Positions 4,192 through 29,981 of a stretch of 49,662 bases of DNA are shown one piece after another (positions within the stretch are counted from its first letter, which is position 1; every line of letters begins with the position of its first letter). The notes beneath the pieces are model-generated. The model saw only the letters and a list, made by a program, of their open reading frames with translations, was not told where the DNA came from and did no database searches. The position numbers and the translations under genes are program-made. Source of the stretch: Escherichia phage 1W; sequence record OM475428; one strand, written 5' to 3'.

Positions 4192-5686
4192 TCTTTCACA
4201 CATTATTGCCGCAGCATTCAATGAACCGCTGCTTCTGGAGCCCGCCTATGCGCGGGTTTTCTTTTGCGCGCTCGGGCGCGAGATGGGGGCAGCAAGTCTT
4301 TCGGTACCACAACAGCAGGTACAGTTTGATGCTCTCGGAATGCTGGCTGAAACGGACGAGTACATGGCCGGAGGTAAACGACCGGCCCGTGTTTACAGGG
4401 TGGTGAACGGTATTGCTGTACTGCCGGTGACCGGCACGCTGGTGCACCGGCTGGGTGGTATGCGGCCATTTTCCGGAATGACAGGCTATGACGGTATTGT
4501 CGCCTGTCTTCAGCAGGCAATGGCGGATAGCCAGGTGCGGGGCGTACTGCTGGACATTGACAGTCCGGGCGGGCAGGCCGCCGGCGCGTTTGACTGCGCT
4601 GACATGATTTACCGCCTCCGTCAGCAGAAGCCGGTCTGGGCACTGTGCAATGACACGGCCTGTTCTGCAGCCATGCTGCTGGCGTCGGCCTGCTCCCGAC
4701 GGCTGGTTACCCAGACATCCCGTATCGGTTCCATTGGCGTGATGATGAGCCATGTCAGCTATGCCGGTCATCTGGCGCAGGCCGGTGTGGATATCACGCT
4801 GATTTACTCAGGGGCGCACAAGGTGGATGGCAATCAGTTTGAAGCGTTGCCGGCAGAGGTTCGCCAGGACATGCAGCAGCGGATTGATGCGGCGCGCCGG
4901 ATGTTTGCCGAAAAAGTGGCGATGTTTACCGGTCTGTCTGTTGATGCAGTCACAGGAACAGAGGCCGCTGTTTTTGAAGGTCAGTCCGGCATTGAGGCCG
5001 GGCTGGCGGATGAATTAATCAATGCGTCGGATGCCATCAGTGTGATGGCCACGGCGCTGAACAGTAATGTCAGAGGAGGCACTATGCCGCAATTAACTGC
5101 AACGGAAGCCGCCGCGCAGGAGAACCAGCGAGTGATGGGGATCCTGACATGCCAGGAAGCGAAAGGACGTGAACAGCTTGCCACGATGCTGGCAGGACAA
5201 CAGGGCATGAGCGTTGAACAGGCCCGGGCGATTCTGGCCGCGGCGGCACCGCAGCAGCCGGTGGCATCCACGCAGAGTGAAGCCGATCGCATTATGGCGT
5301 GTGAAGAAGCGAACGGTCGTGAACAACTGGCGGCAACGCTGGCGGCGATGCCGGAGATGACGGTGGAAAAAGCCCGCCCGATCCTGGCTGCTTCACCGCA
5401 GGCGGATGCCGGACCATCACTCCGTGATCAGATCATGGCACTGGATGAGGCAAAAGGGGCTGAGGTGCAGGCTGAACAGCTGGCTGCCTGCCCGGGAATG
5501 ACTGTGGAGTGCGCCCGGGCTGTGCTGGCTGCGGGATCAGGTAAGGCAGAACCGGTCTCTGCATCCACAACCGCCATGTTTGAACATTTCATGGCGAACC
5601 ATTCACCGGCAGCGGTACAGGGTGGCGTGCCACAGACGTCAGCAGACGGTGATGCGGACGTGAAAATGCTCATGGCCATGCCATGA
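4181..5686 (+). CDS. C: Head maturation protease / scaffold (gpC with nested Nu3-like C-terminal region)
   Basis: N-terminal two thirds match lambda gpC (ClpP/S49-like; AFNEPLLLEPAYARVFF, VWALCNDTACSAA). GTG start overlaps the B stop. C-terminus carries three tandem copies of an approximately 45-aa motif. Confidence 0.85.
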   Translation: MRRNLSHIIAAAFNEPLLLEPAYARVFFCALGREMGAASLSVPQQQVQFDALGMLAETDEYMAGGKRPARVYRVVNGIAVLPVTGTLVHRLGGMRPFSGMTGYDGIVACLQQAMADSQVRGVLLDIDSPGGQAAGAFDCADMIYRLRQQKPVWALCNDTACSAAMLLASACSRRLVTQTSRIGSIGVMMSHVSYAGHLAQAGVDITLIYSGAHKVDGNQFEALPAEVRQDMQQRIDAARRMFAEKVAMFTGLSVDAVTGTEAAVFEGQSGIEAGLADELINASDAISVMATALNSNVRGGTMPQLTATEAAAQENQRVMGILTCQEAKGREQLATMLAGQQGMSVEQARAILAAAAPQQPVASTQSEADRIMACEEANGREQLAATLAAMPEMTVEKARPILAASPQADAGPSLRDQIMALDEAKGAEVQAEQLAACPGMTVECARAVLAAGSGKAEPVSASTTAMFEHFMANHSPAAVQGGVPQTSADGDADVKMLMAMP

Positions 5687-5722
5687 AGCCAGTGCTGACC
5701 ATCAATAGGAGGTTTTAACAAT

Positions 5723-6070
5723 ATGGTGACGAAAACCATCACTGAACAGCGTGCGGAAGTACGTATTTTTGCCGGTAATGATCCGGCTCATACCGCCACA
5801 GGCAGCAGCGGGATTTCTTCTGCAACACCGGCTCTGACGCCCCTGATGCTGGATGAAGCCACCGGGAAACTGGTGGTCTGGGACGGACAGAAAGCCGGTA
5901 GTGCGGTTGGCATACTGGTACTGCCGCTTGAAGGCACAGAGACGGCGCTGACGTATTACAAGTCGGGAACCTTTGCGACGGAGGCAATCCACTGGCCTGA
6001 AAGTGTGGATGAACACAAAAAGGCCAACGCCTTTGCTGGCAGTGCCCTGAGTCACGCGGCGCTGCCGTAA
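5723..6070 (+). CDS. D: Head decoration protein (gpD)
   Basis: 115 aa; similarity to lambda gpD (DPAHTAT, TPLMLD, YYKSGTF, AFAG) from recall. Confidence 0.85.
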   Translation: MVTKTITEQRAEVRIFAGNDPAHTATGSSGISSATPALTPLMLDEATGKLVVWDGQKAGSAVGILVLPLEGTETALTYYKSGTFATEAIHWPESVDEHKKANAFAGSALSHAALP

Positions 6071-18925: not shown

Positions 18926-20854
18926 ATGGCAGTACAGATTTCAGGCGTGCTGAAAGACGGTGCAGGAAAACCGATACAGAACTGCACCATTCAGCTCAAA
19001 GCAAAACGTAACAGCACCACGGTTGTGGTGAACACGGTGGCCTCAGAAAATCCGGATGAAGCCGGACGTTACAGCATGGATGTCGAGTATGGCCAGTACA
19101 GCGTTATCCTGCTGGTTGAAGGTTTTCCGCCTTCACATGCCGGGACCATCACCGTGTATGAGGATTCTAAGCCGGGGACGCTGAATGATTTTCTGGGGGC
19201 CATGACGGAAGAGGATGTCATGCCGGAGGCATTGCGTCGTTTTGAGGTAATGGTGGAGGATGTGGCACGCAACGCTGAAGCCGCCTCTCAGAGCGCAGCG
19301 GCAGCAAAGAAATCAGAAACAGCAGCGGCATCGTCCAGGAACGCGGCGAAAACATCAGAGACGAATGCAGGTAACAGCGCGAAAGCGGCAGCTTCTTCAA
19401 AAACAGCCGCACAAAACGCAGCAACAGCGGCAGAACGTTCAGAGACAAATGCCCGTGCGTCAGAAGAAGCCTCCGCAGACAGTGAAGAGGCTTCCCGCCG
19501 TAATGCAGAGTCAGCCGCTGAAAATGCCGGAGTCGCCACCACAAAAGCGCGGGAGGCTGCAGCAGACGCAACAAAGGCCGGGCAGAAAAAGGATGAGGCT
19601 CTGTCGGCAGCGACACGAGCTGAAAAGGCGGCAGACCGCGCAGAAGCCGCAGCGGAAGTGACTGCAGAGCCCTATGCGAATATAGTGCCGCCGCTGCCTG
19701 ATGTGTGGATACCGTTTAACGATTCACTGGATATGATTGCGGGTTTTTCTCCGGGCTATAAAAAAATAGCTATTGGTGACGATGTGGTTCAGGTCGCCAG
19801 TGATAAACAGGTTAATTTCAGTCGCGCATCAACGGCAACATATATCAACAAATCTGGCGAACTGAAAACGGCGGAAATTAATGAGCCGCGATTTGAGTGT
19901 GATGGCCTGCTTATTGAGGGACAAAGAACGAACTACATGCTCAATTCGGAAAGTCCAGCCAGCTGGGGGAAGTCATCAAACATGGATGTGCCCGAAACTG
20001 GGACGGATAGTTTTGGTTTTACTTATGGAAAGTTTGTCTGCAACGATTCTCTGGTTGGGCAAACTTCGGCTATTAATATGGCATCAATTGCTGCAACAAA
20101 GTCAGTTGATGTCTCAGGCGATAACAAGTACGTGACAACCTCATGCCGTTTTAAAACAGAACGACAGGTAAGGTTACGTATACGGTTTGATAAGTATGAT
20201 GGTAGTGCAACAACTTTTCTTGGCGATGCGTACATTGATACGCAAACGCTTGAAATTAATATGACAGGTGGTGCTGCCGGCAGAATTACGGCACGAGTCA
20301 GGAAGGATAAGACCACGGGCTGGATTTTTGCAGAGGCAACGATTCAGGCAATTGATGGTGAGTTAAAAATAGGCTCTCAGATACAGTATTCTCCTGAGCA
20401 GGGTGGGGCAACAGTATCTGGTGACTATATTTATCTTGCCACCCCACAAGTAGAGAATGGGCCGTGTGTATCATCATTTATTATTTCAGGAGGCAGCGCA
20501 ACGACAAGAGCCAGTGATTTGGTTAGTATCCCCACCAGAAATAATCTTTATAAGTTACCATTTACTTTTTTACTTGAGATTCATAAAAACTGGGATATTG
20601 CACCAAACGCCGCACCCCGCGTGTGGGATATAGCAGCCAATACCGGGCAATCAGCAATTGCAGCAATCAACAGAGGTAGTGGTAAGTTATATATGAGTCT
20701 GTCAAACCCTTCAGGCTCGTATGTTAATAGCGCAGCGACAGATGTATTTGCAGAGAAAACCACATTTGGATGTATTGCAAAAGCTGATGGTCACTTTCAT
20801 GTGGTGACAAATGGTAAAGCGGTTAATGAAGTTTATTGTGAATATAATGGGTAA
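18926..20854 (+). pseudogene. stf: Side tail fibre gene interrupted near its 3' end by an IS66-family insertion; encodes a product lacking the last 43 residues
   Basis: N-terminus near-identical to lambda Stf (MAVxISGVLKDGxGKPxQNCTIQLKAxRNSTTVVVNTV) with Ala/Ser-rich repeats. The stop codon TAA is supplied by the first bases of the IS left end at 20851. Confidence 0.8.
20843..20850. repeat. 8-bp target site duplication TATAATGG (left copy)
   Basis: Identical 8-mer immediately flanks both IS ends (20843-20850 and 23383-23390). Confidence 0.8.
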
Positions 20855-20935
20855 GCGTAAACTGACCGCCGTATGTAGCCATCAGACGAGAATTGGTAAC
20901 TTAGACGCCCATCTGATATAGACGGACATCTAAGT

Positions 20936-21361
20936 ATGGAATTACAGGACTGGCGAAAAGAACCTCGTAAAAACTATTCGAATGAATTCAAACTTCGTAT
21001 GGTGGAACTGGCATCACAACCTGGAGCTTGTGTTGCACAGATTGCACGTGAAAATGGCGTCAATGATAATGTTATTTTCAAATGGCTCAGGCTCTGGCAG
21101 AACGAAGGGCGTGTTTCGCGGCGTCTTCCGGTAACGACCTCTTCTGACACTGGCGTTGAATTATTACCTGTAGAAATAACGCCGGATGAGCAGAAAGAAC
21201 CTGTGGCGGCCATTGCGCCGTCTTTATCCACTTCCACTCAGACCAGAGTCAGTGCCAGTTCCTGCAAGGTGGAATTCCGTCACGGTAACATGACGCTGGA
21301 AAATCCATCGCCAGAGCTGCTCACAGTGTTGATCCGTGAACTGACCGGGAGGGGAAGATGA
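20936..21361 (+). CDS. IS66 family accessory protein (orf1/TnpA-like, HTH)
   Basis: 141 aa; IS66 orf1-like N-terminus; overlaps orf2 by 4 nt. Confidence 0.8.
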   Translation: MELQDWRKEPRKNYSNEFKLRMVELASQPGACVAQIARENGVNDNVIFKWLRLWQNEGRVSRRLPVTTSSDTGVELLPVEITPDEQKEPVAAIAPSLSTSTQTRVSASSCKVEFRHGNMTLENPSPELLTVLIRELTGRGR

Positions 21362-21708
21362 TCTCACTCCCATCAGGTACCCGTATCTGGCTCGTTGCCG
21401 GCGTTACCGATATGCGTAAATCCTTCAACGGACTGGGAGAACAGGTACAACATGTGCTGAATGATAATCCCTTCTCCGGTCACCTGTTTATCTTCCGTGG
21501 CCGACGGGGTGACACCGTCAAAATTCTTTGGGCTGATGCTGATGGTCTGTGCCTGTTCACCAAACGCCTGGAGGAAGGCCAGTTTATCTGGCCTGCGGTA
21601 CGTGACGGCAAGGTATCCATTACCCGCTCGCAACTGGCAATGCTCCTCGATAAGCTGGACTGGCGTCAGCCAAAAACATCCAGCCGTAACTCACTGACAA
21701 TGTTGTAA
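21358..21708 (+). CDS. IS66 family TnpB-like protein (orf2)
   Basis: 116 aa with the typical IS66 orf2 motif (RIWLVAGVTDMRKSFNGL). Confidence 0.85.
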   Translation: MISLPSGTRIWLVAGVTDMRKSFNGLGEQVQHVLNDNPFSGHLFIFRGRRGDTVKILWADADGLCLFTKRLEEGQFIWPAVRDGKVSITRSQLAMLLDKLDWRQPKTSSRNSLTML

Positions 21709-21738
21709 AAAACTCCTGACCGCATTATAAAAACGGTC

Positions 21739-23352
21739 ATGAGTCAGAAATACCTCATTCGCATCGCAGAGCTGGAAAGGTTGCTCTCTGAGCAGGCTGA
21801 AGCCCTCCGTCAGAAAGACCAGCAACTGAGTCTGGTTGAAGAGACGGAAGCCTTCCTGCGCTCTGCACTGACACGTGCCGAAGAAAAGATCGAAGAAGAT
21901 GAACGGGAAATAGAACATCTGCGGGCTCAGATAGAAAAACTGCGCCGGATGCTGTTCGGTACCCGTTCTGAAAAACTGCGTCGTGAAGTTGAACTGGCTG
22001 AGGCTCTGCTGAAACAACGTGAACAGGACAGCGATCGTTACAGTGGGCGGGAAGACGATCCTCAGGTTCCCCGCCAGTTGCGACAGTCGCGCCATCGTCG
22101 TCCGTTACCGGCACACCTTCCCCGTGAAATACACCGCCTGGAGCCAGAAGAAAGCTGTTGCCCGGAGTGTGGCGGTGAGCTGGATTATCTGGGGGAAGTC
22201 AGCGCTGAACAGCTGGAACTGGTGAGCAGTGCCCTGAAAGTGATCCGCACAGAACGGGTAAAAAAAGCCTGTACAAAATGTGACTGTATTGTTGAAGCAC
22301 CGGCGCCGTCCCGCCCGATAGAGCGTGGTATCGCGGGCCCCGGATTACTTGCCCGCGTGTTAACGGGAAAATACTGCGAACATCTGCCACTGTATCGTCA
22401 GAGTGAAATCTTTGCCCGCCAGGGTGTCGAACTGAGCCGGGCCTTACTCTCCAACTGGGTTGACGCGTGCTGCCAGTTAATGACACCGGTGAATGATGCC
22501 CTGTACCGTTATGTAATGAATACCCGCAAGGTTCACACTGATGACACACCGGTAAAGGTACTGGCACCGGGTCAGAAAAAGGCGAAAACAGGGCGTATCT
22601 GGACGTATGTCCGGGATGATCGCAATGTGGGTTCGTCATCTCCTCCAGCGGTCTGGTTCGCGTACTCGCCGAACCGGCAGGGGAAACACCCGGAGCAACA
22701 CCTCCGCCCCTTCCGGGGTATCCTGCAGGCGGATGCGTTCACAGGTTACGACAGGTTGTTCAGTGCAGAACGTGAAGGTGGTGCACTGACAGAAGTTGCG
22801 TGCTGGGCCCATGCCCGGCGAAAAATCCACGATGTATACATCAGCAGCAAAAGTGCGACGGCAGAAGAAGCCCTGAAGCGAATCAGTGAACTGTACGCCA
22901 TCGAGGATGAAATACGGGGATTACCGGAGTCAGAGCGTCTTGCCGTCAGGCAGCAGCGAAGCAAAGTGTTACTGACGTCGCTGCATGAATGGATGGTGGA
23001 GAAGAATGGTACGCTGTCGAAAAAATCCAGACTGGGCGAAGCGTTCAGCTATGTACTGAATCAGTGGGATGCCCTCTGTTATTACAGTGATGACGGTCTG
23101 GCGGAGGCGGATAATAATGCTGCGGAAAGAGCGCTTCGTGCAGTCTGTCTCGGAAAGAAAAACTTTATGTTCTTTGGCAGCGATCACGGCGGCGAGCGTG
23201 GAGCACTGTTGTACGGGCTGATCGGCACCTGCCGTCTGAACGGTATCGATCCGGAAGCGTATCTGCGCCATATCCTGAGCGTACTGCCGGAATGGCCTTC
23301 CAACCGAGTTGACGAACTCCTGCCATGGAACGTAGTACTCACCAATAAATAA
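21739..23352 (+). CDS. IS66 family transposase (orf3, DDE with zinc ribbon)
   Basis: 537 aa; N-terminal coiled coil, CPECGGEL zinc-ribbon motif, conserved IS66 transposase core. Confidence 0.85.
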   Translation: MSQKYLIRIAELERLLSEQAEALRQKDQQLSLVEETEAFLRSALTRAEEKIEEDEREIEHLRAQIEKLRRMLFGTRSEKLRREVELAEALLKQREQDSDRYSGREDDPQVPRQLRQSRHRRPLPAHLPREIHRLEPEESCCPECGGELDYLGEVSAEQLELVSSALKVIRTERVKKACTKCDCIVEAPAPSRPIERGIAGPGLLARVLTGKYCEHLPLYRQSEIFARQGVELSRALLSNWVDACCQLMTPVNDALYRYVMNTRKVHTDDTPVKVLAPGQKKAKTGRIWTYVRDDRNVGSSSPPAVWFAYSPNRQGKHPEQHLRPFRGILQADAFTGYDRLFSAEREGGALTEVACWAHARRKIHDVYISSKSATAEEALKRISELYAIEDEIRGLPESERLAVRQQRSKVLLTSLHEWMVEKNGTLSKKSRLGEAFSYVLNQWDALCYYSDDGLAEADNNAAERALRAVCLGKKNFMFFGSDHGGERGALLYGLIGTCRLNGIDPEAYLRHILSVLPEWPSNRVDELLPWNVVLTNK

Positions 23353-23382
23353 GCGTCAATACGGTGCTCCGTTGACGCTTAC

Positions 23383-23390
23383 TATAATGG
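23383..23390. repeat. 8-bp target site duplication TATAATGG (right copy)
   Basis: Direct repeat of 20843-20850 abutting the IS right end. Confidence 0.8.
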
Positions 23391-23523
23391 CGTGACCGCT
23401 GATAAAAATATCCGATTTGGAGGGCAGACGAATACTGGAGAACGACATCTGTTTGGCCATATTCGCAATTTCCGCATATGGCATAAAGAATTAAATGACA
23501 GGCAATTAAAAGAGGTCGTATGA
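23391..23523 (+). pseudogene. stf: Displaced 3' end of stf (last 43 codons plus stop), in frame with the upstream part once the IS and one TSD copy are removed
   Basis: Conceptual excision restores ...EYNG-VTADKNIRFGGQTNTGERHLFGHIRNFRIWHKELNDRQLKEVV*; the tail resembles the last strand of a LamG/ConA-like lectin domain. Confidence 0.7.
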
Positions 23524-23798
23524 AAGATTTAACTTTGAAGTTTCATGACAAACTGCAGTTTAAGGCCTTCCTGTCATCTCTTGGCTGGGCGGAAGATGAA
23601 GACCTCCAGAATAAACTGTTAGTTGATGAAATTGGTTTCACCTACACAGAAACAGGGGTAACAGAAGAGGGAGAACCTGTCTGTATCCGGAATGATGGTT
23701 ATTTTGTCAACATTCGCATTCTTGATGACTTGTTTGATGTTTCTGTATTCTCTGATTATGTCGTGGAGCTGGAAACACCGCTTCGGGAATGGAGCTGA
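23520..23798 (+). CDS. Hypothetical acidic protein, start overlapping the reconstructed stf stop (GTATGA)
   Basis: 92-aa ORF with ATG; the stop/start overlap suggests original translational coupling to stf; no recognisable family. Confidence 0.5.
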   Translation: MKDLTLKFHDKLQFKAFLSSLGWAEDEDLQNKLLVDEIGFTYTETGVTEEGEPVCIRNDGYFVNIRILDDLFDVSVFSDYVVELETPLREWS

Positions 23799-23810
23799 AA
23801 GGAGGAAATA

Positions 23811-24104
23811 ATGGATATAAGCCCCTTACTTCATGCACTTTGTGCTGTGGCTGCGCAGATACTGGTTGGTCTTTTTACCGGAAACTGGGCTTACGGAGCG
23901 ATAGCCGGTTGTACGTTCTTCATTGCGCGTGAACATACCCAGGCAGAATATCGCTGGATTGAAATGTTCGGGCATGGCAAGCGAATGAATATGCCGTGGT
24001 GGGGCGGTTTTGATCCGCGTGCTTGGGATGTGGCAAGCCTGATGGATTTTGCTGTGCCGGTGGTGGCGTGTCTGCTGGTCTGGCTGTTGGTTAATCGTGG
24101 GTGA
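23811..24104 (+). CDS. Hypothetical small membrane protein (two predicted TM segments)
   Basis: 97 aa with hydrophobic N- and C-terminal stretches, Trp-rich middle; RBS-like GGAGG upstream. Confidence 0.5.
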   Translation: MDISPLLHALCAVAAQILVGLFTGNWAYGAIAGCTFFIAREHTQAEYRWIEMFGHGKRMNMPWWGGFDPRAWDVASLMDFAVPVVACLLVWLLVNRG

Positions 24105-24195
24105 AAAAAGGTGAGCTGTATATGCAACGGAGGAAGAAACCCCGTTGCTGGAAGCCAGGAAAAAGTATCGGGTGTTGCTGTCCTCGGATGTTGTG

Positions 24196-25053
24196 CTAAT
24201 TGGGTGATAACAGATCCTGTGTATGGGAGTTTCCCTTTTTGCGTGCGTTGATGCTGGTAACGGCAAACGTCATGATGAACAAAACCGCGAATAAGACGAC
24301 AATCGTCGGAGCTGGTGCGCTGTCGATAAAAAAGGACAACCAGACACCAGTCATTGACACTATTACCGATATGCCAGTCGCCAGTAGGAGCGCAATATGA
24401 AAGCGTTGTGTCAGGAGTACCGCAATGGCGCCAGGCGCAATGAGCAGAGAAATGGAGAGAATGATACCTACCGCTTTCAGCGTCGCCACAATGGTCAGAG
24501 AGACCATGCACAGCAGCCCATAATGCAGCCATCTCGTATGCAAACCGCTTACCTGCGCCTGTTGATAATCAAAGCTGAACAGCAAAAAATCCCGCCATTT
24601 TACGCTAATAACAAGTGTAACCAGCCCGGCAATAATCATCGTCTGGATTATATCGCCGATGGTTATCCCGAGCATGTCGCCGAAAAGAATATGGTCAAGA
24701 TGTACGTCTGGTTTGACTGCAATATACAAGATCAGACCTGCGGCAAACATGCCAGAAAAAACAATCCCCATCACTGTATCTTGCTTGATTCGGCTGTTGT
24801 CTTTCAGGTATCCCGTCGCCACCGCGCAGAATACTCCGGCGACGAATGCCCCTGTAGCCAAAGGTAACCCCAGAATCCAGGCAAGCACGATGCCAGGAAA
24901 AACCGCATGACTCATCGCGTCACCCATCAGTGCCCAACCTTTCAGGACCAGAAAGACCGACAGCAGCGCACAGGGTATGGAAACTACCAGTGAAATCAGC
25001 AGTGCGTGACTCATAAAGGTGAACTGCAGTGGCTCCAGTAATAATGCCATCAT
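24196..25053 (-). CDS. sitD: Mn/Fe ABC transporter permease SitD
   Basis: 285 aa polytopic membrane protein, ABC-3 permease family; last gene of a four-gene operon with overlapping stop/start junctions. Confidence 0.85.
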   Translation of the reverse strand: MMALLLEPLQFTFMSHALLISLVVSIPCALLSVFLVLKGWALMGDAMSHAVFPGIVLAWILGLPLATGAFVAGVFCAVATGYLKDNSRIKQDTVMGIVFSGMFAAGLILYIAVKPDVHLDHILFGDMLGITIGDIIQTMIIAGLVTLVISVKWRDFLLFSFDYQQAQVSGLHTRWLHYGLLCMVSLTIVATLKAVGIILSISLLIAPGAIAVLLTQRFHIALLLATGISVIVSMTGVWLSFFIDSAPAPTIVVLFAVLFIMTFAVTSINARKKGNSHTQDLLSPN

Positions 25054-25907
25054 GAGCGATCCTCCAGCGCCTTATGCGCACGCCGACGATTTGCCAAAAG
25101 CCCATGGGTGGGCGCAAAGACAAATGCTAAAAGAAACAGCAGTGTCTGCGCCACCACGATGATTCCACCTGTCGCGCCGTCCAGAAAGTAACTGACCCAC
25201 GCGCCGAGGAAACTGGTTACACTGCCAATAGTTACAGCAATCATGAGCAGGCGGGGAAAACGATCGGTTAACAACCATGCTGTTGCACCGGGAGTCACCA
25301 CCAGACAGATCACCAGAAAGGCACCAACCGTTTGCAGCGCCGCAACGGTCGAAACCGACAGCAGGGTGAAGAAGAGGAGTTTTAATCTGCCCGGATGCAA
25401 TCCAATAGCACGGGCGTGATTCTCGTCGAAAAAGGTCACCATAAGATCTTTCCATTTGAAAAAAAGCACGATGATCGAGAGAATGCCAATGATAGTGAGT
25501 TGCAGGATATCCGCCGGATCGATTGCCAGAATATTGCCCAGGACGATGGTCTGAATGTTCACAGATGTCGGGTTCAATGACACCATAAACAGCCCCAGGC
25601 CAAAAAAGGACGAGAAGATCAGACCGATGATGGCATCTTCTTTTAAGCGGGTGCGTTGGTTAAGAAACAGCATGCTGCCCGCAGCCAGTCCGCCGGAAAA
25701 GAAGGCTCCCAGAGAAAACGGAAGCCCCAGCATATATGCCCCCGCAACACCCGGGACAATAGAGTGCGACAACGCATCGCCAATCAGCGACCAGCCTTTT
25801 AGCATCAGATAGCATGACAGGAAAGCGCAGAGACCGCCGACCATCGCCGAGACCCACATCGCATTGAGCATATATTCATAGCTGAAGGGTTCCAGTAGCA
25901 CGTTCAT
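25050..25907 (-). CDS. sitC: Mn/Fe ABC transporter permease SitC
   Basis: 285 aa paralogous permease; overlaps neighbours by 4 nt. Confidence 0.85.
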
Positions 25908-26731
25908 CTTTCTTCCCTCTGCACCGCTGACGGTCGATGAGCCACAAAAGGGCGTTCATCGTCAGTAATAATGCTTTCTTCCGAGCCGTTAAGTGTGACA
26001 TGGCGCAGTACGCCGCTAAAAGCCAGCTCTAGGTTCTCGGCTGTAAAAGTGGTGTCTGTCGGCCCGCTTGCCAGGACGGTGCCTTTGACCATGACCGTAT
26101 AATCGCAAAATGTCGTGACGGATCCGAGATTGTGTGTTGAGACAAGCATCGTTTTGCCTTCCGCGCGTAACTCCCTCAACAGGCTGATGATTTTGGCTTC
26201 GGTTTTCACATCAACGCCAGTAAAAGGTTCATCCAGCAGGATCACATCACCCTGCTGTGCAATCGCTCTCGCCAGAAAGACGCGTTTCTTTTGTCCACCG
26301 GAAAGCTCGCCGATTTGTCGATGGCGAAAATTCACCATATCGACACGTTCCAGCGCATCGGTGACAATTTGACGATCCCTCTTTTTGGCGATACGCAACA
26401 TACCCATATGCCCATAGCGGCCCATCATCACCACATCTTCCACCAGTACAGGAAATGACCAGTCAACCTCTTCTGACTGAGGGACGTAGGCAACCAGGTT
26501 TTTCTGTAACGCCTGTCGCGTGGGAATACCCAGAACAGATATCTTTCCGCTGGTCAGACGCACAAATCCCATAATCGCTTTAAACAACGTCGATTTTCCG
26601 GAACCGTTTACCCCAACCAGAGCGGCAATAGATCCACTTGGTACTGTGAAGGATGCATCGCGCAGTGCTGTGTGCCCGTTATGCCAGGTGACAGCAACAT
26701 CATTAACGACAATGCCTGCAGATTGCATCAT
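25904..26731 (-). CDS. sitB: Mn/Fe ABC transporter ATP-binding protein SitB
   Basis: Walker [13 protein letters not shown] signature LSGGQKKR, Walker B ILLDEP. Confidence 0.9.
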
Positions 26732-27645
26732 TATTTCTCCCTTTTCCCGGCTTTAATTCCCTGTACCAGCGTACTGGTAGTAACCTTAAGAAGGTCGATA
26801 TACGTCGGTACCGGGCCGTTTTCTGTGCTCAGGGAATCGACATAGAGCACACCGCCGTAGTGTGCGCCGGTTTCACGCGCAACCTGACGCGCTGGTTTAT
26901 CGGAAATCGTACTCTCGCTAAAGACTGCCGGGATATGATTTTTCTTAACTATATCAACAACCTTACGTACCTGCTGCGGTGTTCCTTGTTGATCGGCATT
27001 AATCGGCCACAGATAAAGCTCTTTTAGCCCCAAATCGCGTGCGAGATAAGAAAAAGCCCCTTCACTGGTGACCATCCATCGCTGATTCTCAGGGAGTTCC
27101 GTAATCTGCTTACGCAGGGGGGCAAGGGTTTGGGTAATCTTGGCTTTATAAGTATCGGCATTGCGTTGGTAGGTTTGTGCATTTGCCGGATCGTATTTTA
27201 TCAACGCATCACGAATATTATCGACGTAAATCAGAGCATTATCTGGCGACATCCATGCATGGGGGTTAGGTTTGCCCTCATAGGGTCCTTCGGTGATCCC
27301 TACAGGCGTCACACCCGAAGAGACAATTACTTCTGGAACCCCATTGAGATGCTGGTAAAAGCGTTGGAACCACAATTCCAGATTCATACCATTGGCGAGA
27401 ATCAGTTGTGCCCCCTGCGCACGTTTAATATCGCCAGGGGTAGGCTGATACTCATGAATTTCTGCACCAGGCTTGGTTATGGATGAGACTTCTGCAGCAT
27501 CTCCCGCCACGTTTTTGGCCATATCCGCGATGATGGTAAATGTTGTAATGACCTTAAATTTTTCAGTTGCACTTGCCTGAAATGCGATCGAGCAGGTGAG
27601 TGCGAGGCCCCCCAAGAGCATGGTTACTTTTTTTATTGAGCGCAT
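26731..27645 (-). CDS. sitA: Periplasmic Mn/Fe-binding protein SitA (cluster A-I substrate-binding protein) with signal peptide
   Basis: 304 aa; N-terminal signal peptide; TroA/ZnuA-like fold features; first gene of the operon. Confidence 0.9.
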
Positions 27646-27677
27646 AATTTAGTACCTATAGTGAGCAAAATTAGAAC

Positions 27678-27699
27678 AAACATAGCAACGGCTATGTTT
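27678..27699 (-). promoter_or_regulatory. MntR-box-like palindrome upstream of sitA
   Basis: AAACATAGCAACGGCTATGTTT, a near-perfect inverted repeat about 35 bp upstream of the sitA start, matching the remembered MntR operator consensus. Confidence 0.6.
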
Positions 27700-27723
27700 T
27701 ATAGCATAACCTATACAGAATGA

Positions 27724-27740
27724 AAATGATTATCATTAAC
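27724..27740 (-). promoter_or_regulatory. Fur-box-like sequence upstream of sitA
   Basis: AAATGATTATCATTAAC contains the GATAAT/ATTATC-type palindrome characteristic of Fur boxes. Confidence 0.55.
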
Positions 27741-27748
27741 ATCTTTGA

Positions 27749-28078
27749 GGCCCAAAACAGGGATTAGTTTGTTTCCTGCTGGATGAAAGGACTCTTGGGA
27801 TAGCACATGCCGCACGAAGAGCAGCATTACATGATGTTTTGTCGAATGAGCTACGAATCCTGATAGAAATACGAAACAAGCTAGCACATGGACAATGGAT
27901 CTATCCCTTCAATAATGAAGGAAATACTGTGGACCCTGATAAATATAAATTAATCAATAAAGAAAACTTGCAGTCACTCCAATTCAAATATTCATTAGCA
28001 CAGCATTTAGTTGACGCTGTACATGATTTGGTTGTAAGTCCTACGACATTCGAACGAGATTTCGAAAGCCATTTTTAA
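27749..28078 (+). pseudogene. 5'-truncated remnant of a HEPN-like (R-x4-H motif) gene
   Basis: Open frame without any in-frame ATG (the track start is TTG); contains EIRNKLAHG (Rx4H); begins right at the sit promoter region, suggesting truncation by the sit insertion. Confidence 0.4.
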
Positions 28079-28431
28079 AAATTATATCAAGTACGAACAA
28101 ACTTAGTGACAAAAGACTACGAAAAATATAAAACAATTTTAGTATTAAGTAGAGAGAAATTTCGTTCTGCTAGGACGCAGCAATAGGTTCATGAGATTCT
28201 CTGATACTTGTTACCTTAGTAAGCCTTAAATTTTTAAAAATTCTTTTACGTCCACTCCTCGCTCATAACAGGCATTAACTACATTTATCTTCATTGGCTA
28301 TGCAAGTCGTAATAAAAGGTGGGACAAAACTGAGACACATAAGCTCTCACAAAGGTCTGCAAGGCCTCACATGTATTGAGATGTTAATAAAATGTAGACT
28401 TGTAATTTTGATATAAATGGTAGATAAAACC

Positions 28432-28443
28432 TTTCCCCAAAAT
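28432..28443 (+). repeat. Arm-type-like repeat TTTCCCCAAAAT on the left side of attP
   Basis: Fourth copy of the TTCCCCAAAA(C/T) motif that is triplicated at 28791-28828. Confidence 0.45.
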
Positions 28444-28560
28444 AAAAACGAACGTCAATGAAATCAAATGGTTGAATAAAGTTGATTTTGGCTAATAAAA
28501 AAACAATAAAATAATTTTTATTATTAAATATCAATGACTTAAACTTAATGTTTTTATATA

Positions 28561-28725
28561 CTGCTGCGCCATATGGGTTGGACTGAAGCGGCTGACCTGA
28601 TTGTTAAAGGTATGGAAGGCGCAATCAACGCCAAGACCGTAACCTATGACTTCGAACGTCTGATGGAAGGCGCTAAACTGCTGAAATGTTCAGAGTTTGG
28701 TGATGCGATCATCAAGAATATGTAA
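28561..28725 (+). other. icd: Phage-borne 3' fragment of icd (isocitrate dehydrogenase C-terminus); the attP crossover region lies at its 5' edge
   Basis: In-frame translation [54 protein letters not shown] matches the E. coli Icd C-terminus from recall, with upstream sequence unrelated to icd. Phage 21 and e14 are known to integrate into icd and carry such a replacement fragment. Confidence 0.8.
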
Positions 28726-28748
28726 TCACTACATGTGTTAAATATTGA

Positions 28749-28777
28749 AACGGGCGTATAACACGCCCGTTGTTTTA
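28749..28777 (+). terminator. Intrinsic terminator after the icd fragment
   Basis: Stem aacgggcgt / acgcccgtt with a 5-nt loop, followed by gtttta. Confidence 0.65.
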
Positions 28778-28790
28778 TGATGATGTAAAA

Positions 28791-28828
28791 TCTTCCCCAA
28801 AACTTTCCCCAAAACCCTTCCCCAAAAC
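28791..28828 (+). repeat. Three tandem direct repeats (tc/t/cc)TTCCCCAAAAC; candidate integrase arm-type binding sites
   Basis: Three consecutive 12-13-bp units between the icd fragment and the int 3' end; one more copy at 28432-28443. Confidence 0.55.
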
Positions 28829-28838
28829 TGGCTGTTTT

Positions 28839-29981
28839 CTATGCTGTTTTGATATCTACGATAATCCAGTCTTTACCACGATCATCATTGTATCGGTCGG
28901 TCATTTTTCTGGATTTATGGCCTAACAACTTTTGCGTATCCAGACCCTGTTCCCGATATAACCGTTCTGACAGAGATCGCTGCTCATGAAATGTGGGCGC
29001 AGTTCCTTGCTCCCATTTTATGCCACATTTTTCCCTGGCCTTTTTAAAAGCCGTTGTCAGAGTATTCGCAGAAACCTGGTCTCCTCTGTTTGCTTGAGAG
29101 GTTGTGTGACGGTAATGGACCAGATATTTACTAACAACAGCATCCCTGCACTGAGATATAACTTCACGAAGGGTAATATTCAGAGCATCGCATTTCAGGT
29201 TAAGCGGAATAGCAAGTTTTGAACCGGTTTTTTCCTGAGTAATGTGCAACATGTCGTCCCAGATATCAGAGAATTTCAAATTGCAGATATCGCCTAAACG
29301 TTGTCCAGTGACAAGAGCAAGTAGCATCCCGCATTTTAAATAGGGCTGCCGTCTGCTTACGCTGTCAAATATTGCCTGCCATTCGGGCAGTGATAATCTT
29401 TGGCGGTTTACTCGATTTCGCGGTTGTTTTGTTGCCTGCGCTGGGTTAAATCCTGGCGGAACATGTCCTGCGTGTTGTGCTTCTTTGAAGACGTCGATTA
29501 ACACCATTCTCACGACTTGCGCCATCCTGTTATGACCTTCAGCCTTTACAGCATCAATTATTTCGGCAATATCAAGTGCGGTAATATCCTTGAGGTGTTG
29601 CATTCCACAATGCTCACGGAAAAGACGAATGGGTTTGCCTTTTTGCCGATAGGAGTTGGGTCTTAGTTCATTATGTTGCAGCCTGTCCTCCTGGATAGAA
29701 ATATATTTATCAAGCCATTCTGTCACCGTAATGTCTGAGCGCCTGCCTTTCATTCTTTCCAGACGCTCATTGACGCTTAATATTTGTCGGGTACGTTGTT
29801 CAGCAATAATGGTATTTGCTTCAGTAGCAACTTGTTTTGCTTCATTCTCATCAGTTCCTAAGCTATGAAAACGACCGGATAGTGGATGTTTGTATTGCCA
29901 ATATACCTTTCCGGTTCGCTTATCTAATTTGCAATATAAATTGGGTATAGAGATTTTGTGAGATCGGGGTCTAGCAGCCAT
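28839..29981 (-). CDS. int: Tyrosine integrase (lambda Int family)
   Basis: 380 aa; C-terminal catalytic region LLGHKSRKMTDRYNDDRGKDW resembles lambda Int (LLGHKSDTMASQYRDDRG); adjacent to xis and att. Confidence 0.9.
   Translation of the reverse strand: MAARPRSHKISIPNLYCKLDKRTGKVYWQYKHPLSGRFHSLGTDENEAKQVATEANTIIAEQRTRQILSVNERLERMKGRRSDITVTEWLDKYISIQEDRLQHNELRPNSYRQKGKPIRLFREHCGMQHLKDITALDIAEIIDAVKAEGHNRMAQVVRMVLIDVFKEAQHAGHVPPGFNPAQATKQPRNRVNRQRLSLPEWQAIFDSVSRRQPYLKCGMLLALVTGQRLGDICNLKFSDIWDDMLHITQEKTGSKLAIPLNLKCDALNITLREVISQCRDAVVSKYLVHYRHTTSQANRGDQVSANTLTTAFKKAREKCGIKWEQGTAPTFHEQRSLSERLYREQGLDTQKLLGHKSRKMTDRYNDDRGKDWIIVDIKTA

What the first reader, a model, noticed from the sequence alone, without database searches (positions are those of the whole stretch)
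27749..28078. Start-less HEPN-like ORF remnant between the sit promoter and attP
The reading frame is open from 27749 but has no in-frame ATG anywhere, so the track start is a TTG. It contains an R-x4-H motif (EIRNKLAHG) characteristic of HEPN nuclease domains found in abortive-infection and toxin proteins. The frame begins inside the sitA promoter/operator region, which suggests that a defence or toxin gene near int was decapitated when the sit operon was acquired.
Basis: inference. Interest (0 to 1): 0.4.

Follow-up and report, generated by a model that had tools for sequence, protein, structure and literature searches.

The report
Dead remnant of a HEPN gene
This is the broken back half of a roughly 243-residue HEPN-type (probable RNA-cutting defence or toxin) gene, stranded between the sit metal-uptake operon and the integration site of a phage-21-like E. 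coli phage; it is an ordinary pseudogene, though intact copies belong to a widespread, uncharacterised family.

Summary
The frame is open from 27749, has no in-frame ATG, lists a TTG at 27839, and encodes RNKLAH at 27872-27889.

The feature is a gene remnant, and it is longer than reported. After the TAA at 28076-28078 the same frame continues to a TAG at 28184-28186. The whole stretch 27779-28186 matches codons 109-243 of intact 243-aa genes: 92.5% nt identity to a metagenome island copy and 87% to an E. coli prophage copy. It lacks a promoter, a start codon, a ribosome-binding site and the first 108 codons. It also carries a nonsense change (Lys to TAA).

The intact family has 480 clusters at 50% identity and matches PHROG 12663 at E=3.5e-51. 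It belongs to the HEPN superfamily, nearest Pfam RiboL-PSP-HEPN. R, N and H of RNxxxH are its only invariant residues. It is a stand-alone gene with no conserved partner.

The sit block and its left flank are 99.45% identical to phage 21, so sit was acquired before the truncation. The gene was cut later, at a 4-bp CTGG microhomology.

The remnant occurs in 298 of 5426 complete E. coli genomes and is decaying further. Interest is low.

The parts
27646..27782 (-). sitA upstream regulatory DNA, the right end of the sit module. It holds a MntR-like palindrome at 27679-27698 and a Fur-box-like site at 27722-27740. Bases 27749-27778 of the reported frame are this DNA, not gene.
   Evidence: Searches give the operator-like sites, each unique in the window; identity to phage 21, PhiR57_1 and Salmonella SPF_0923 (94.5-97.9%) stops at 27782.
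27779..27782 (+). CTGG, a 4-bp microhomology at the novel joint between sit-upstream DNA and codon 109 of the HEPN-family gene.
   Evidence: three-way alignment of phage 21, the window and L008. Both parents read CTGG at the crossover.
27779..28186 (+). Pseudogene remnant: codons 109-243 plus the original stop of a 243-aa stand-alone HEPN-superfamily gene.
   Evidence: 92.5% nt identity, ungapped, to L008 5659-6137; 87% to the E. coli copies L089 and L090; intact 243-aa ORFs. PHROG 12663 positions 111-238 of 246, E=3.5e-51.
27839..28078 (+). The 79-aa TTG-initiated ORF listed mechanically; most probably not a gene.
   Evidence: One search lists it; no Shine-Dalgarno sequence within 5-10 nt upstream and no in-frame ATG; not annotated by PGAP in RefSeq phage 4A7 or in an ST131 chromosome.
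27872..27889 (+). RNKLAH, the R-N-x3-H catalytic-type HEPN motif.
   Evidence: R128, N129 and H133 are the only invariant columns in 116 family members; the Pfam HEPN_RiboL-PSP match in P0146 covers this motif.
28076..28078 (+). Premature in-frame TAA at codon 208; intact alleles have Lys here (L008 reads AAG).
   Evidence: window-specific change K100*. P0022 reads HFKKLYQ.
28187..28272 (+). 3' flank of the ancestral gene cassette, retained up to about the cassette's natural end. The right-hand novel joint lies between about 28266 and 28280.
   Evidence: homology to L008, L089 and L092 runs to 28257-28265; it continues by eye to about 28271 across a 6-bp indel.
28071..28083 (+). First copy of the 13-bp direct repeat ATTTTTAAAAATT. 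The second copy is at 28230-28242. Some E. coli lineages have deleted the DNA between them.
   Evidence: One search gives the repeat coordinates. L102 joins 28083 to 28232. P0002 product.
28281..28838 (+). Phage-21-type attachment module. It holds the icd 3'-end fragment (28573-28725) and the attP core at about 28791-28827, placed by alignment to the phage 21 annotation.
   Evidence: 93.4% identity to phage 21 from 28281; phage 21 annotation of the icd-like pseudogene and attP P1P2P3; the icd C-terminal ORF.
28839..29981 (-). Tyrosine integrase (phage 21 type).

Best explanation
The feature is a non-functional 3' remnant of a moron gene.

The parent was a cassette of about 1.1 kb holding its own upstream region, a 243-aa stand-alone HEPN-superfamily protein and about 85 bp of 3' flank. 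Cassettes of this kind travel between prophages, genomic islands and ICEs.

In the ancestor of this phage lineage (4A7, 3W, Lambda_4C10 and the sit prophage at icd in ST131-type E. coli), an illegitimate recombination at a CTGG microhomology joined sit-upstream DNA (27782) to codon 109 of the gene (27779). This removed the gene's promoter, start codon, ribosome-binding site and the N-terminal helices of the HEPN domain. It also removed at least 51 bp of ancestral sit-upstream DNA.

A later AAG/AAA to TAA change killed codon 208. In some lineages a further deletion between 13-bp repeats removed more.

The remnant keeps the catalytic-type RNxxxH helix and the C-terminal helices, but it cannot form the domain and most probably makes no product.

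Shown here: the homology, the truncation point, the nonsense codon, the junction sequences, the order of events relative to sit, and the further decay.

Inferred: that the intact protein is an RNase-type abortive-infection or toxin effector, and that the remnant is untranslated.
For: Remnant and parent gene:
- PHROG 12663 at E=3.5e-51, covering only profile positions 111-238 of 246 and spanning the internal stop.
- Full-length homologues of about 200-231 aa align across the stop.
- Intact 243-aa alleles exist: 92.5% nt identity in L008, 87% in E. coli L089 and L090, 89% in viral contig L092.

Junction and order of events:
- Homology to the intact alleles always starts at 27779, and sit-module identity always ends at 27782.
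- CTGG is shared by both parents at the crossover.
- The sit block is 99.45% identical to phage 21.
- 51 bp beyond the junction are shared by phage 21, PhiR57_1 and Salmonella SPF_0923 but are absent here.

Loss of function and decay:
- No ATG and no Shine-Dalgarno sequence. PGAP annotates nothing here.
- The window-specific branch has 9 synonymous and 14 non-synonymous changes, including the nonsense codon. The intact pair has dN/dS of 0.14-0.15.
- A deletion variant joins the 13-bp repeats.

HEPN assignment:
- R, N and H are the only invariant residues.
- 22 of 116 members hit PF18735, one at 29.4 bits against a gathering score of 28.4, and that match includes the motif.
- Weak PADLOC hits go mostly to HEPN-bearing families.
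Against: - No expression data exist, so a short TTG-initiated product cannot be excluded.
- The excess of non-synonymous changes on the remnant branch rests on 23 substitutions and is not statistically decisive.
- Most copies in E. coli are at least 99% identical. This reflects recent clonal spread and says little either way about constraint.
- The fragment itself and its closest full-length relatives do not reach any Pfam, NCBIfam or PADLOC threshold.
- No intermediate (an intact cassette next to this attP) was found, so one-step replacement and insertion-then-deletion cannot be told apart.
Confidence: 0.87

Rival explanations
1. One reading: an intact int-proximal HEPN gene was beheaded by the insertion of the sit operon itself.
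For: The left break (27782/27779) lies at the edge of sit-associated DNA, and the right end of the cassette is intact, as expected if something was inserted into the gene's 5' half.
Against: - Window 23383-27782 is collinear with and 99.45% identical to phage 21, including the left sit junction.
- Phage 21 and PhiR57_1 continue rightwards with other DNA.
- The first 51 bp of that DNA are also sit-linked in a Salmonella phage.
- So sit-upstream DNA was itself truncated at 27782, which means the event came after sit acquisition.
Confidence: 0.07
2. The 79-aa TTG ORF (or a 110-aa read from a non-canonical start) is a functional small protein. One possibility is a dominant-negative or decoy fragment that interferes with HEPN effectors of the same family.
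For: The fragment keeps the RNxxxH helix and the following helices. The remnant is widespread, in 298 of 5426 E. coli genomes.
Against: - No ATG, no Shine-Dalgarno sequence and no own promoter region. The promoter-like count in the region is no higher than in shuffles.
- It carries a premature stop relative to the family.
- Independent further deletions occur.
- It is not annotated by PGAP.
- Intact family members are rare in E. coli, 2 of 5426 genomes, so a decoy would have few targets.
Confidence: 0.04
3. The parent family is not HEPN. It is an unrelated helical protein in which an R-x4-H motif occurs by coincidence.
Against: - R, N and H are the only invariant residues in 116 members.
- 22 of 116 members hit HEPN_RiboL-PSP, 6 HepT-like, 3 HEPN_MAE_28990 and 1 AbiU2, while no unrelated family is hit by more than 2.
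- One member exceeds the curated cut-off, and that match covers the motif.
- The PADLOC families hit by most members are HEPN-bearing.
Confidence: 0.08

Closest known systems
RiboL-PSP-HEPN (Pfam PF18735), a clade of the HEPN superfamily
   Same: All-alpha protein with an R-N-x3-H motif. 22 of 116 family members match the model. One (P0146) scores 29.4 bits against a gathering score of 28.4, over residues 14-151, which include the motif.
   Different: Most members, including the nearest relatives of this remnant, fall below threshold. The family has an extra helical C-terminal extension of about 80 residues. No fusion to another domain was seen (most members about 230-250 aa).
PHROG 12663 (phage protein family of unknown function)
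   Same: Direct membership of the parent gene: E=3.5e-51, profile positions 111-238 of 246.
   Different: The window holds only the C-terminal 55% and has an internal stop. The PHROG carries no functional annotation.
HepT-type HEPN toxins of HEPN/MNT toxin-antitoxin pairs (e.g. PDB 7ae2)
   Different: No adjacent MNT or other conserved partner in 46 loci. The protein is about 100 residues longer. Sequence similarity is not significant.
Single-gene HEPN abortive-infection proteins (AbiD/AbiF, AbiU2, AbiJ, AbiV)
   Same: Stand-alone HEPN-type gene carried by prophages, ICEs and islands. The intact E. coli allele lies beside a Septu-like PtuA/HNH pair. There are weak hits to PHROG 2158 'abortive infection resistance protein' (E=0.0024), PADLOC AbiD (5 members) and Pfam AbiU2 (1 member).
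   Different: No hit reaches significance, and no defence phenotype is known for this family.
The alternative cargo of the same slot in phage 21 and PhiR57_1 (CPT_21_31, 252 aa)
   Same: It occupies exactly the same interval between the sit promoter and the attP module.
   Different: Unrelated sequence, intact, no PADLOC match.

Membership tests
HEPN superfamily | Conserved R-x4-6-H motif, typically with a polar residue after R | tested here: met
   RNKLAH at 27872-27889. R128, N129 and H133 are the only invariant columns in 116 diverse members.
HEPN superfamily | All-alpha helical-bundle fold resembling solved HEPN domains | tested here: inconclusive
HEPN superfamily | Significant profile match to a curated HEPN model | tested here: inconclusive
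   For the family: 22 of 116 members hit PF18735, best 9.3e-07 and 29.4 bits against a cut-off of 28.4. For the window fragment, its close relatives and the family consensus: no HEPN hit at threshold.
HEPN superfamily | Metal-independent RNase activity dependent on the R and H residues | not testable with these tools
   Needs biochemistry on an intact allele, e.g. WP_337452296.1.
PHROG 12663 | Significant match to the family profile | tested here: met
   E=3.5e-51, 175 bits, profile positions 111-238 of 246.
HEPN/MNT toxin-antitoxin module | Adjacent conserved nucleotidyltransferase (MNT) partner gene | tested here: not met
   No neighbour family is shared by more than 5 of 46 loci within 3.5 kb.
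Known anti-phage defence families (PADLOC 2.0) | Match to a defence-protein model at significant E-value | tested here: not met
   No hit for the fragment or for the intact E. coli allele. There are only weak hits (E of 1e-4 or higher), the most frequent to HEPN-bearing models, among 116 members.
Pseudogene (gene remnant) | Truncated relative to intact orthologues, with a disabling lesion and without translation signals | tested here: met
   Codons 1-108 are absent. TAA at codon 208. No ATG or Shine-Dalgarno sequence. Further deletions occur in other lineages.

The most novel reading that the evidence does not exclude
The intact parent family is a previously unrecognised single-gene HEPN abortive-infection or defence effector. 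It comprises proteins of about 240 aa, has 480 clusters at 50% identity, matches PHROG 12663 and has no significant match in PADLOC or NCBIfam (only one of 116 members reaches a Pfam threshold). It moves as a roughly 1.1-kb moron between prophages, ICEs and tRNA-Phe islands. The remnant would then record the loss of such a defence gene from the sit prophage that is common in ST131-type E. coli.
Probability: 0.35. Interest if true: 0.45.

Novelty: new member of a known kind. Interest (0 to 1): 0.22.

Why it matters
For this window the result is housekeeping. The 79-aa ORF should be annotated as a pseudogene fragment spanning 27779-28186, not as a gene. The sit-to-attP interval is a cargo slot whose content differs between otherwise near-identical phages.

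The wider value is a lead. The intact relatives form a sizeable, unnamed, stand-alone HEPN family found in mobile elements. In E. coli one copy lies beside a Septu-like system. This family could be tested as a single-gene defence system.

Tried and rejected
- Direct Pfam, NCBIfam and PADLOC scans of the fragment found nothing.
- A Pfam scan of the family consensus found no HEPN hit.
- PDB sequence searches with two family profiles found nothing.
- Foldseek against PDB and BFVD found nothing significant. The afdb50 library was unavailable.
- tblastn of phage genomes with the fragment returned only the five identical phages.
- A search for a conserved partner gene around 46 intact homologues found none.
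- A search for an intact copy next to a phage-21-type integrase in viral contigs found none.
- The 'plasmid' copy (H66) turned out to lie in a stretch with the same gene order as the chromosomal sit–icd–ycgX region (prophage tail-fibre gene, sit, ycgX, bluR, bluF), so it is not an independent context.
- Phage 21's slot protein was tested for homology to the family and is unrelated.
- Literature searches found nothing on this remnant or its family.

Full report
**Setting.** The window is a complete lambdoid phage genome. Bases 27600-28600 are 100% identical to Escherichia phages 4A7, 3W and Lambda_4C10. The local order is sitDCBA on the minus strand (sitA ATG at 27645), the reported frame, a 50-codon icd 3'-end fragment (28573-28725), then int (28839-29981, minus strand) and xis. 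From 28281 rightwards the DNA is phage-21-type (93.4% identity). By alignment to the phage 21 annotation, the attP core lies at about 28791-28827.

**Observation.**
- TGA lies at 27746-27748 and the frame is open from 27749.
- There is no in-frame ATG.
- The first listed start is TTG at 27839, giving a 79-aa ORF that ends at TAA 28076-28078.
- RNKLAH lies at 27872-27889.
- The frame opens 9 bp beyond the window's only Fur-box-like site (27722-27740) and about 50 bp beyond a MntR-like palindrome (27679-27698). It therefore begins in sit regulatory DNA.

Two points were missed. Bases 27749-27778 are sit-module DNA that merely happens to be open. And the same frame continues after the TAA for 35 more codons, to TAG at 28184-28186.

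**What it is.** The 145-residue conceptual translation, with the stop read as X, matches PHROG 12663 (function unknown) at E=3.5e-51. The match covers only positions 111-238 of the 246-position profile and runs across the internal stop. Pfam, NCBIfam and PADLOC give nothing for the fragment.

Database homologues of about 200-231 aa (65-73% identity) align over 98% of the fragment and carry about 100 further N-terminal residues.

Three near-identical intact alleles were found at the DNA level:
- L008, a metagenome contig, has an uninterrupted 243-codon ORF at 5335-6066. It is 92.5% identical, ungapped, to window 27779-28257.
- Two of 5426 complete E. coli genomes carry an intact 243-aa gene (WP_337452296.1), 87% identical over 27779-28265.
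- Viral contig L092 has another intact copy, 89% identical.

Window 27779 therefore corresponds to codon 109. The TAA is codon 208, which is Lys in all intact alleles and in P0022. TAG 28184-28186 is the original stop. About 85 bp of the original 3' flank follow.

**Junctions and order of events.** Identity to the sit module of phage 21, PhiR57_1 and Salmonella phage SPF_0923 ends at 27782 in all three. Homology to every intact allele begins at 27779. The shared CTGG is a 4-bp microhomology at the joint.

To the left, window 23383-27782 is 99.45% identical to phage 21. This stretch includes the tail-fibre end, two small ORFs and the whole sit operon. To the right of the joint, phage 21 and PhiR57_1 carry an unrelated 1.5-kb segment with a 252-aa ORF. 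The first 51 bp of that segment are also attached to sit in the Salmonella phage.

It follows that sit was already present in the common ancestor. The sit-upstream DNA was itself cut at 27782, so the beheading of the HEPN-family gene came later, as a deletion or replacement. It was not a consequence of sit acquisition. I could not find an intermediate, so I cannot say whether a whole cassette was first inserted and then half-deleted, or whether a fragment replaced the 1.5 kb in one step.

**State of the remnant.**
- It has no promoter region of its own, no start codon and no Shine-Dalgarno sequence before the TTG. Promoter-like sites in the region are no more frequent than in shuffled sequence.
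- PGAP annotates nothing here in RefSeq phage 4A7 or in an ST131 chromosome.
- On the window-specific branch there are 9 synonymous and 14 non-synonymous changes, including the nonsense codon. The two intact alleles differ with dN/dS of 0.14-0.15. This suggests relaxed constraint, but the numbers are small.
- The remnant is present in 298 of 5426 E. coli genomes, always at the right end of the sit prophage beside the displaced icd fragment.
- About a quarter of the matching E. coli records hold shorter versions. One class deleted the DNA between the 13-bp repeats at 28071-28083 and 28230-28242.

**What the intact protein is.** The family is sizeable. It has 480 representatives at 50% identity with E<=0.001, most of them about 230-250 aa. 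It occurs in 90 stretches from very diverse bacteria and one archaeon among species-representative genomes.

Evidence on the HEPN assignment:
- In an alignment of 116 diverse members the only invariant residues are R, N and H of RNxxxH.
- Scanned one by one against Pfam, 22 of 116 hit HEPN_RiboL-PSP, 6 HepT-like, 3 HEPN_MAE_28990 and 1 AbiU2. No unrelated family is hit by more than two.
- P0146 exceeds the curated threshold (29.4 against 28.4 bits) over residues 14-151, which include its RNKLAH at 142-147.
- PADLOC gives only weak hits. The families hit by most members are HEPN-bearing: RT-HEPN, AbiD, Cas13a/b and Csx1/Csm6.
- An AlphaFold model of P0007 is confident (pLDDT 87, pTM 0.83) and all helical.

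I conclude that the family belongs to the HEPN superfamily, nearest the RiboL-PSP-HEPN clade. Sequence evidence is good and structural evidence is weak.

The Pfam match spans the N-terminal 150 residues. The window's remnant has therefore lost most of the domain and keeps only the motif-bearing helix and the C-terminal extension.

**Context of intact copies.**
- No neighbour is conserved across 46 loci, so it is a stand-alone gene and not a HEPN/MNT pair.
- In Pseudomonas oryzihabitans it lies in an ICE-like region between a topoisomerase gene, DUF3577, DUF3275, DUF6094 and a SNF2-type helicase.
- In L008 it is the first ORF seen after a P4-type integrase next to tRNA-Phe.
- In the two E. coli genomes it lies in a Qin-like prophage between the replication genes and hokD. 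About 800 bp downstream is a PtuA-like ATPase plus HNH pair, which matches PADLOC PDC-M01A/B and PtuA at E=1e-181 and 1e-85.

This is the kind of place where defence morons are found. A defence or toxin role is therefore plausible, but it rests on inference only.

**Verdict.** The extent needs correcting to 27779-28186, with an internal nonsense codon. The proposed history, decapitation by sit acquisition, is contradicted. The feature itself is an ordinary decaying pseudogene of low interest. The one lead worth keeping is the uncharacterised intact family.

Noticed in passing
window 20851-23382: A 2.5-kb insertion relative to phage 21, between the side-tail-fibre gene and the small ORFs left of sitD. 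Its three ORFs (20936-21361, 21358-21708, 21739-23352) have the layout of an IS66-family element. The ST131 chromosome has an ISEc23 (IS66-like) transposase at the same place.
   Followed up: partly
L006 1002-2500 (phage 21) and L005 2684-4182 (PhiR57_1), equivalent to window 27783-28280: The same sit-to-attP interval holds a different 1.5-kb cargo in phage 21 and PhiR57_1. It includes an intact 252-aa ORF (CPT_21_31) of unknown function with no PADLOC hit. The interval therefore behaves as an exchangeable cargo slot.
   Followed up: partly
L089 8553-10977 and L090 8553-12230: Beside the intact E. coli allele lies a PtuA-like AAA ATPase plus HNH endonuclease pair (PADLOC PDC-M01A/B and PtuA, E down to 1e-181). 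This is a Septu-like candidate defence system in a Qin-like prophage. In strain NH-21 it is disrupted by an ISEc52 insertion.
   Followed up: partly
L008 5227-5294 and 5335-6066: ARAGORN calls a 68-nt 'tRNA-His' with the unusual anticodon ATG just upstream of the intact gene; this is probably spurious. The source's gene caller recorded only an 85-aa product, although the 243-codon ORF is uninterrupted.
   Followed up: no
L103 (NZ_AP026904.1, labelled plasmid pMY504-2): This 237-kb linear 'plasmid' record carries the chromosomal icd-region genes ycgX, bluR, bluF, ycgZ, ymgA and ariR, together with the sit prophage end. It looks like a chromosomal fragment filed as a plasmid.
   Followed up: no
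window 27678-27699 (minus strand): The terminator-like hairpin reported by the pattern scan coincides with the MntR-like palindrome of the sit operator. It is more likely an operator than a terminator.
   Followed up: partly
L038 (contig assigned to a Veillonella parvula MAG, 1450 bp): This short contig matches only residues 97-225 of the family at 69% identity, which is the same extent as the E. coli remnant. It may be E. coli prophage DNA mis-binned into the MAG.
   Followed up: no
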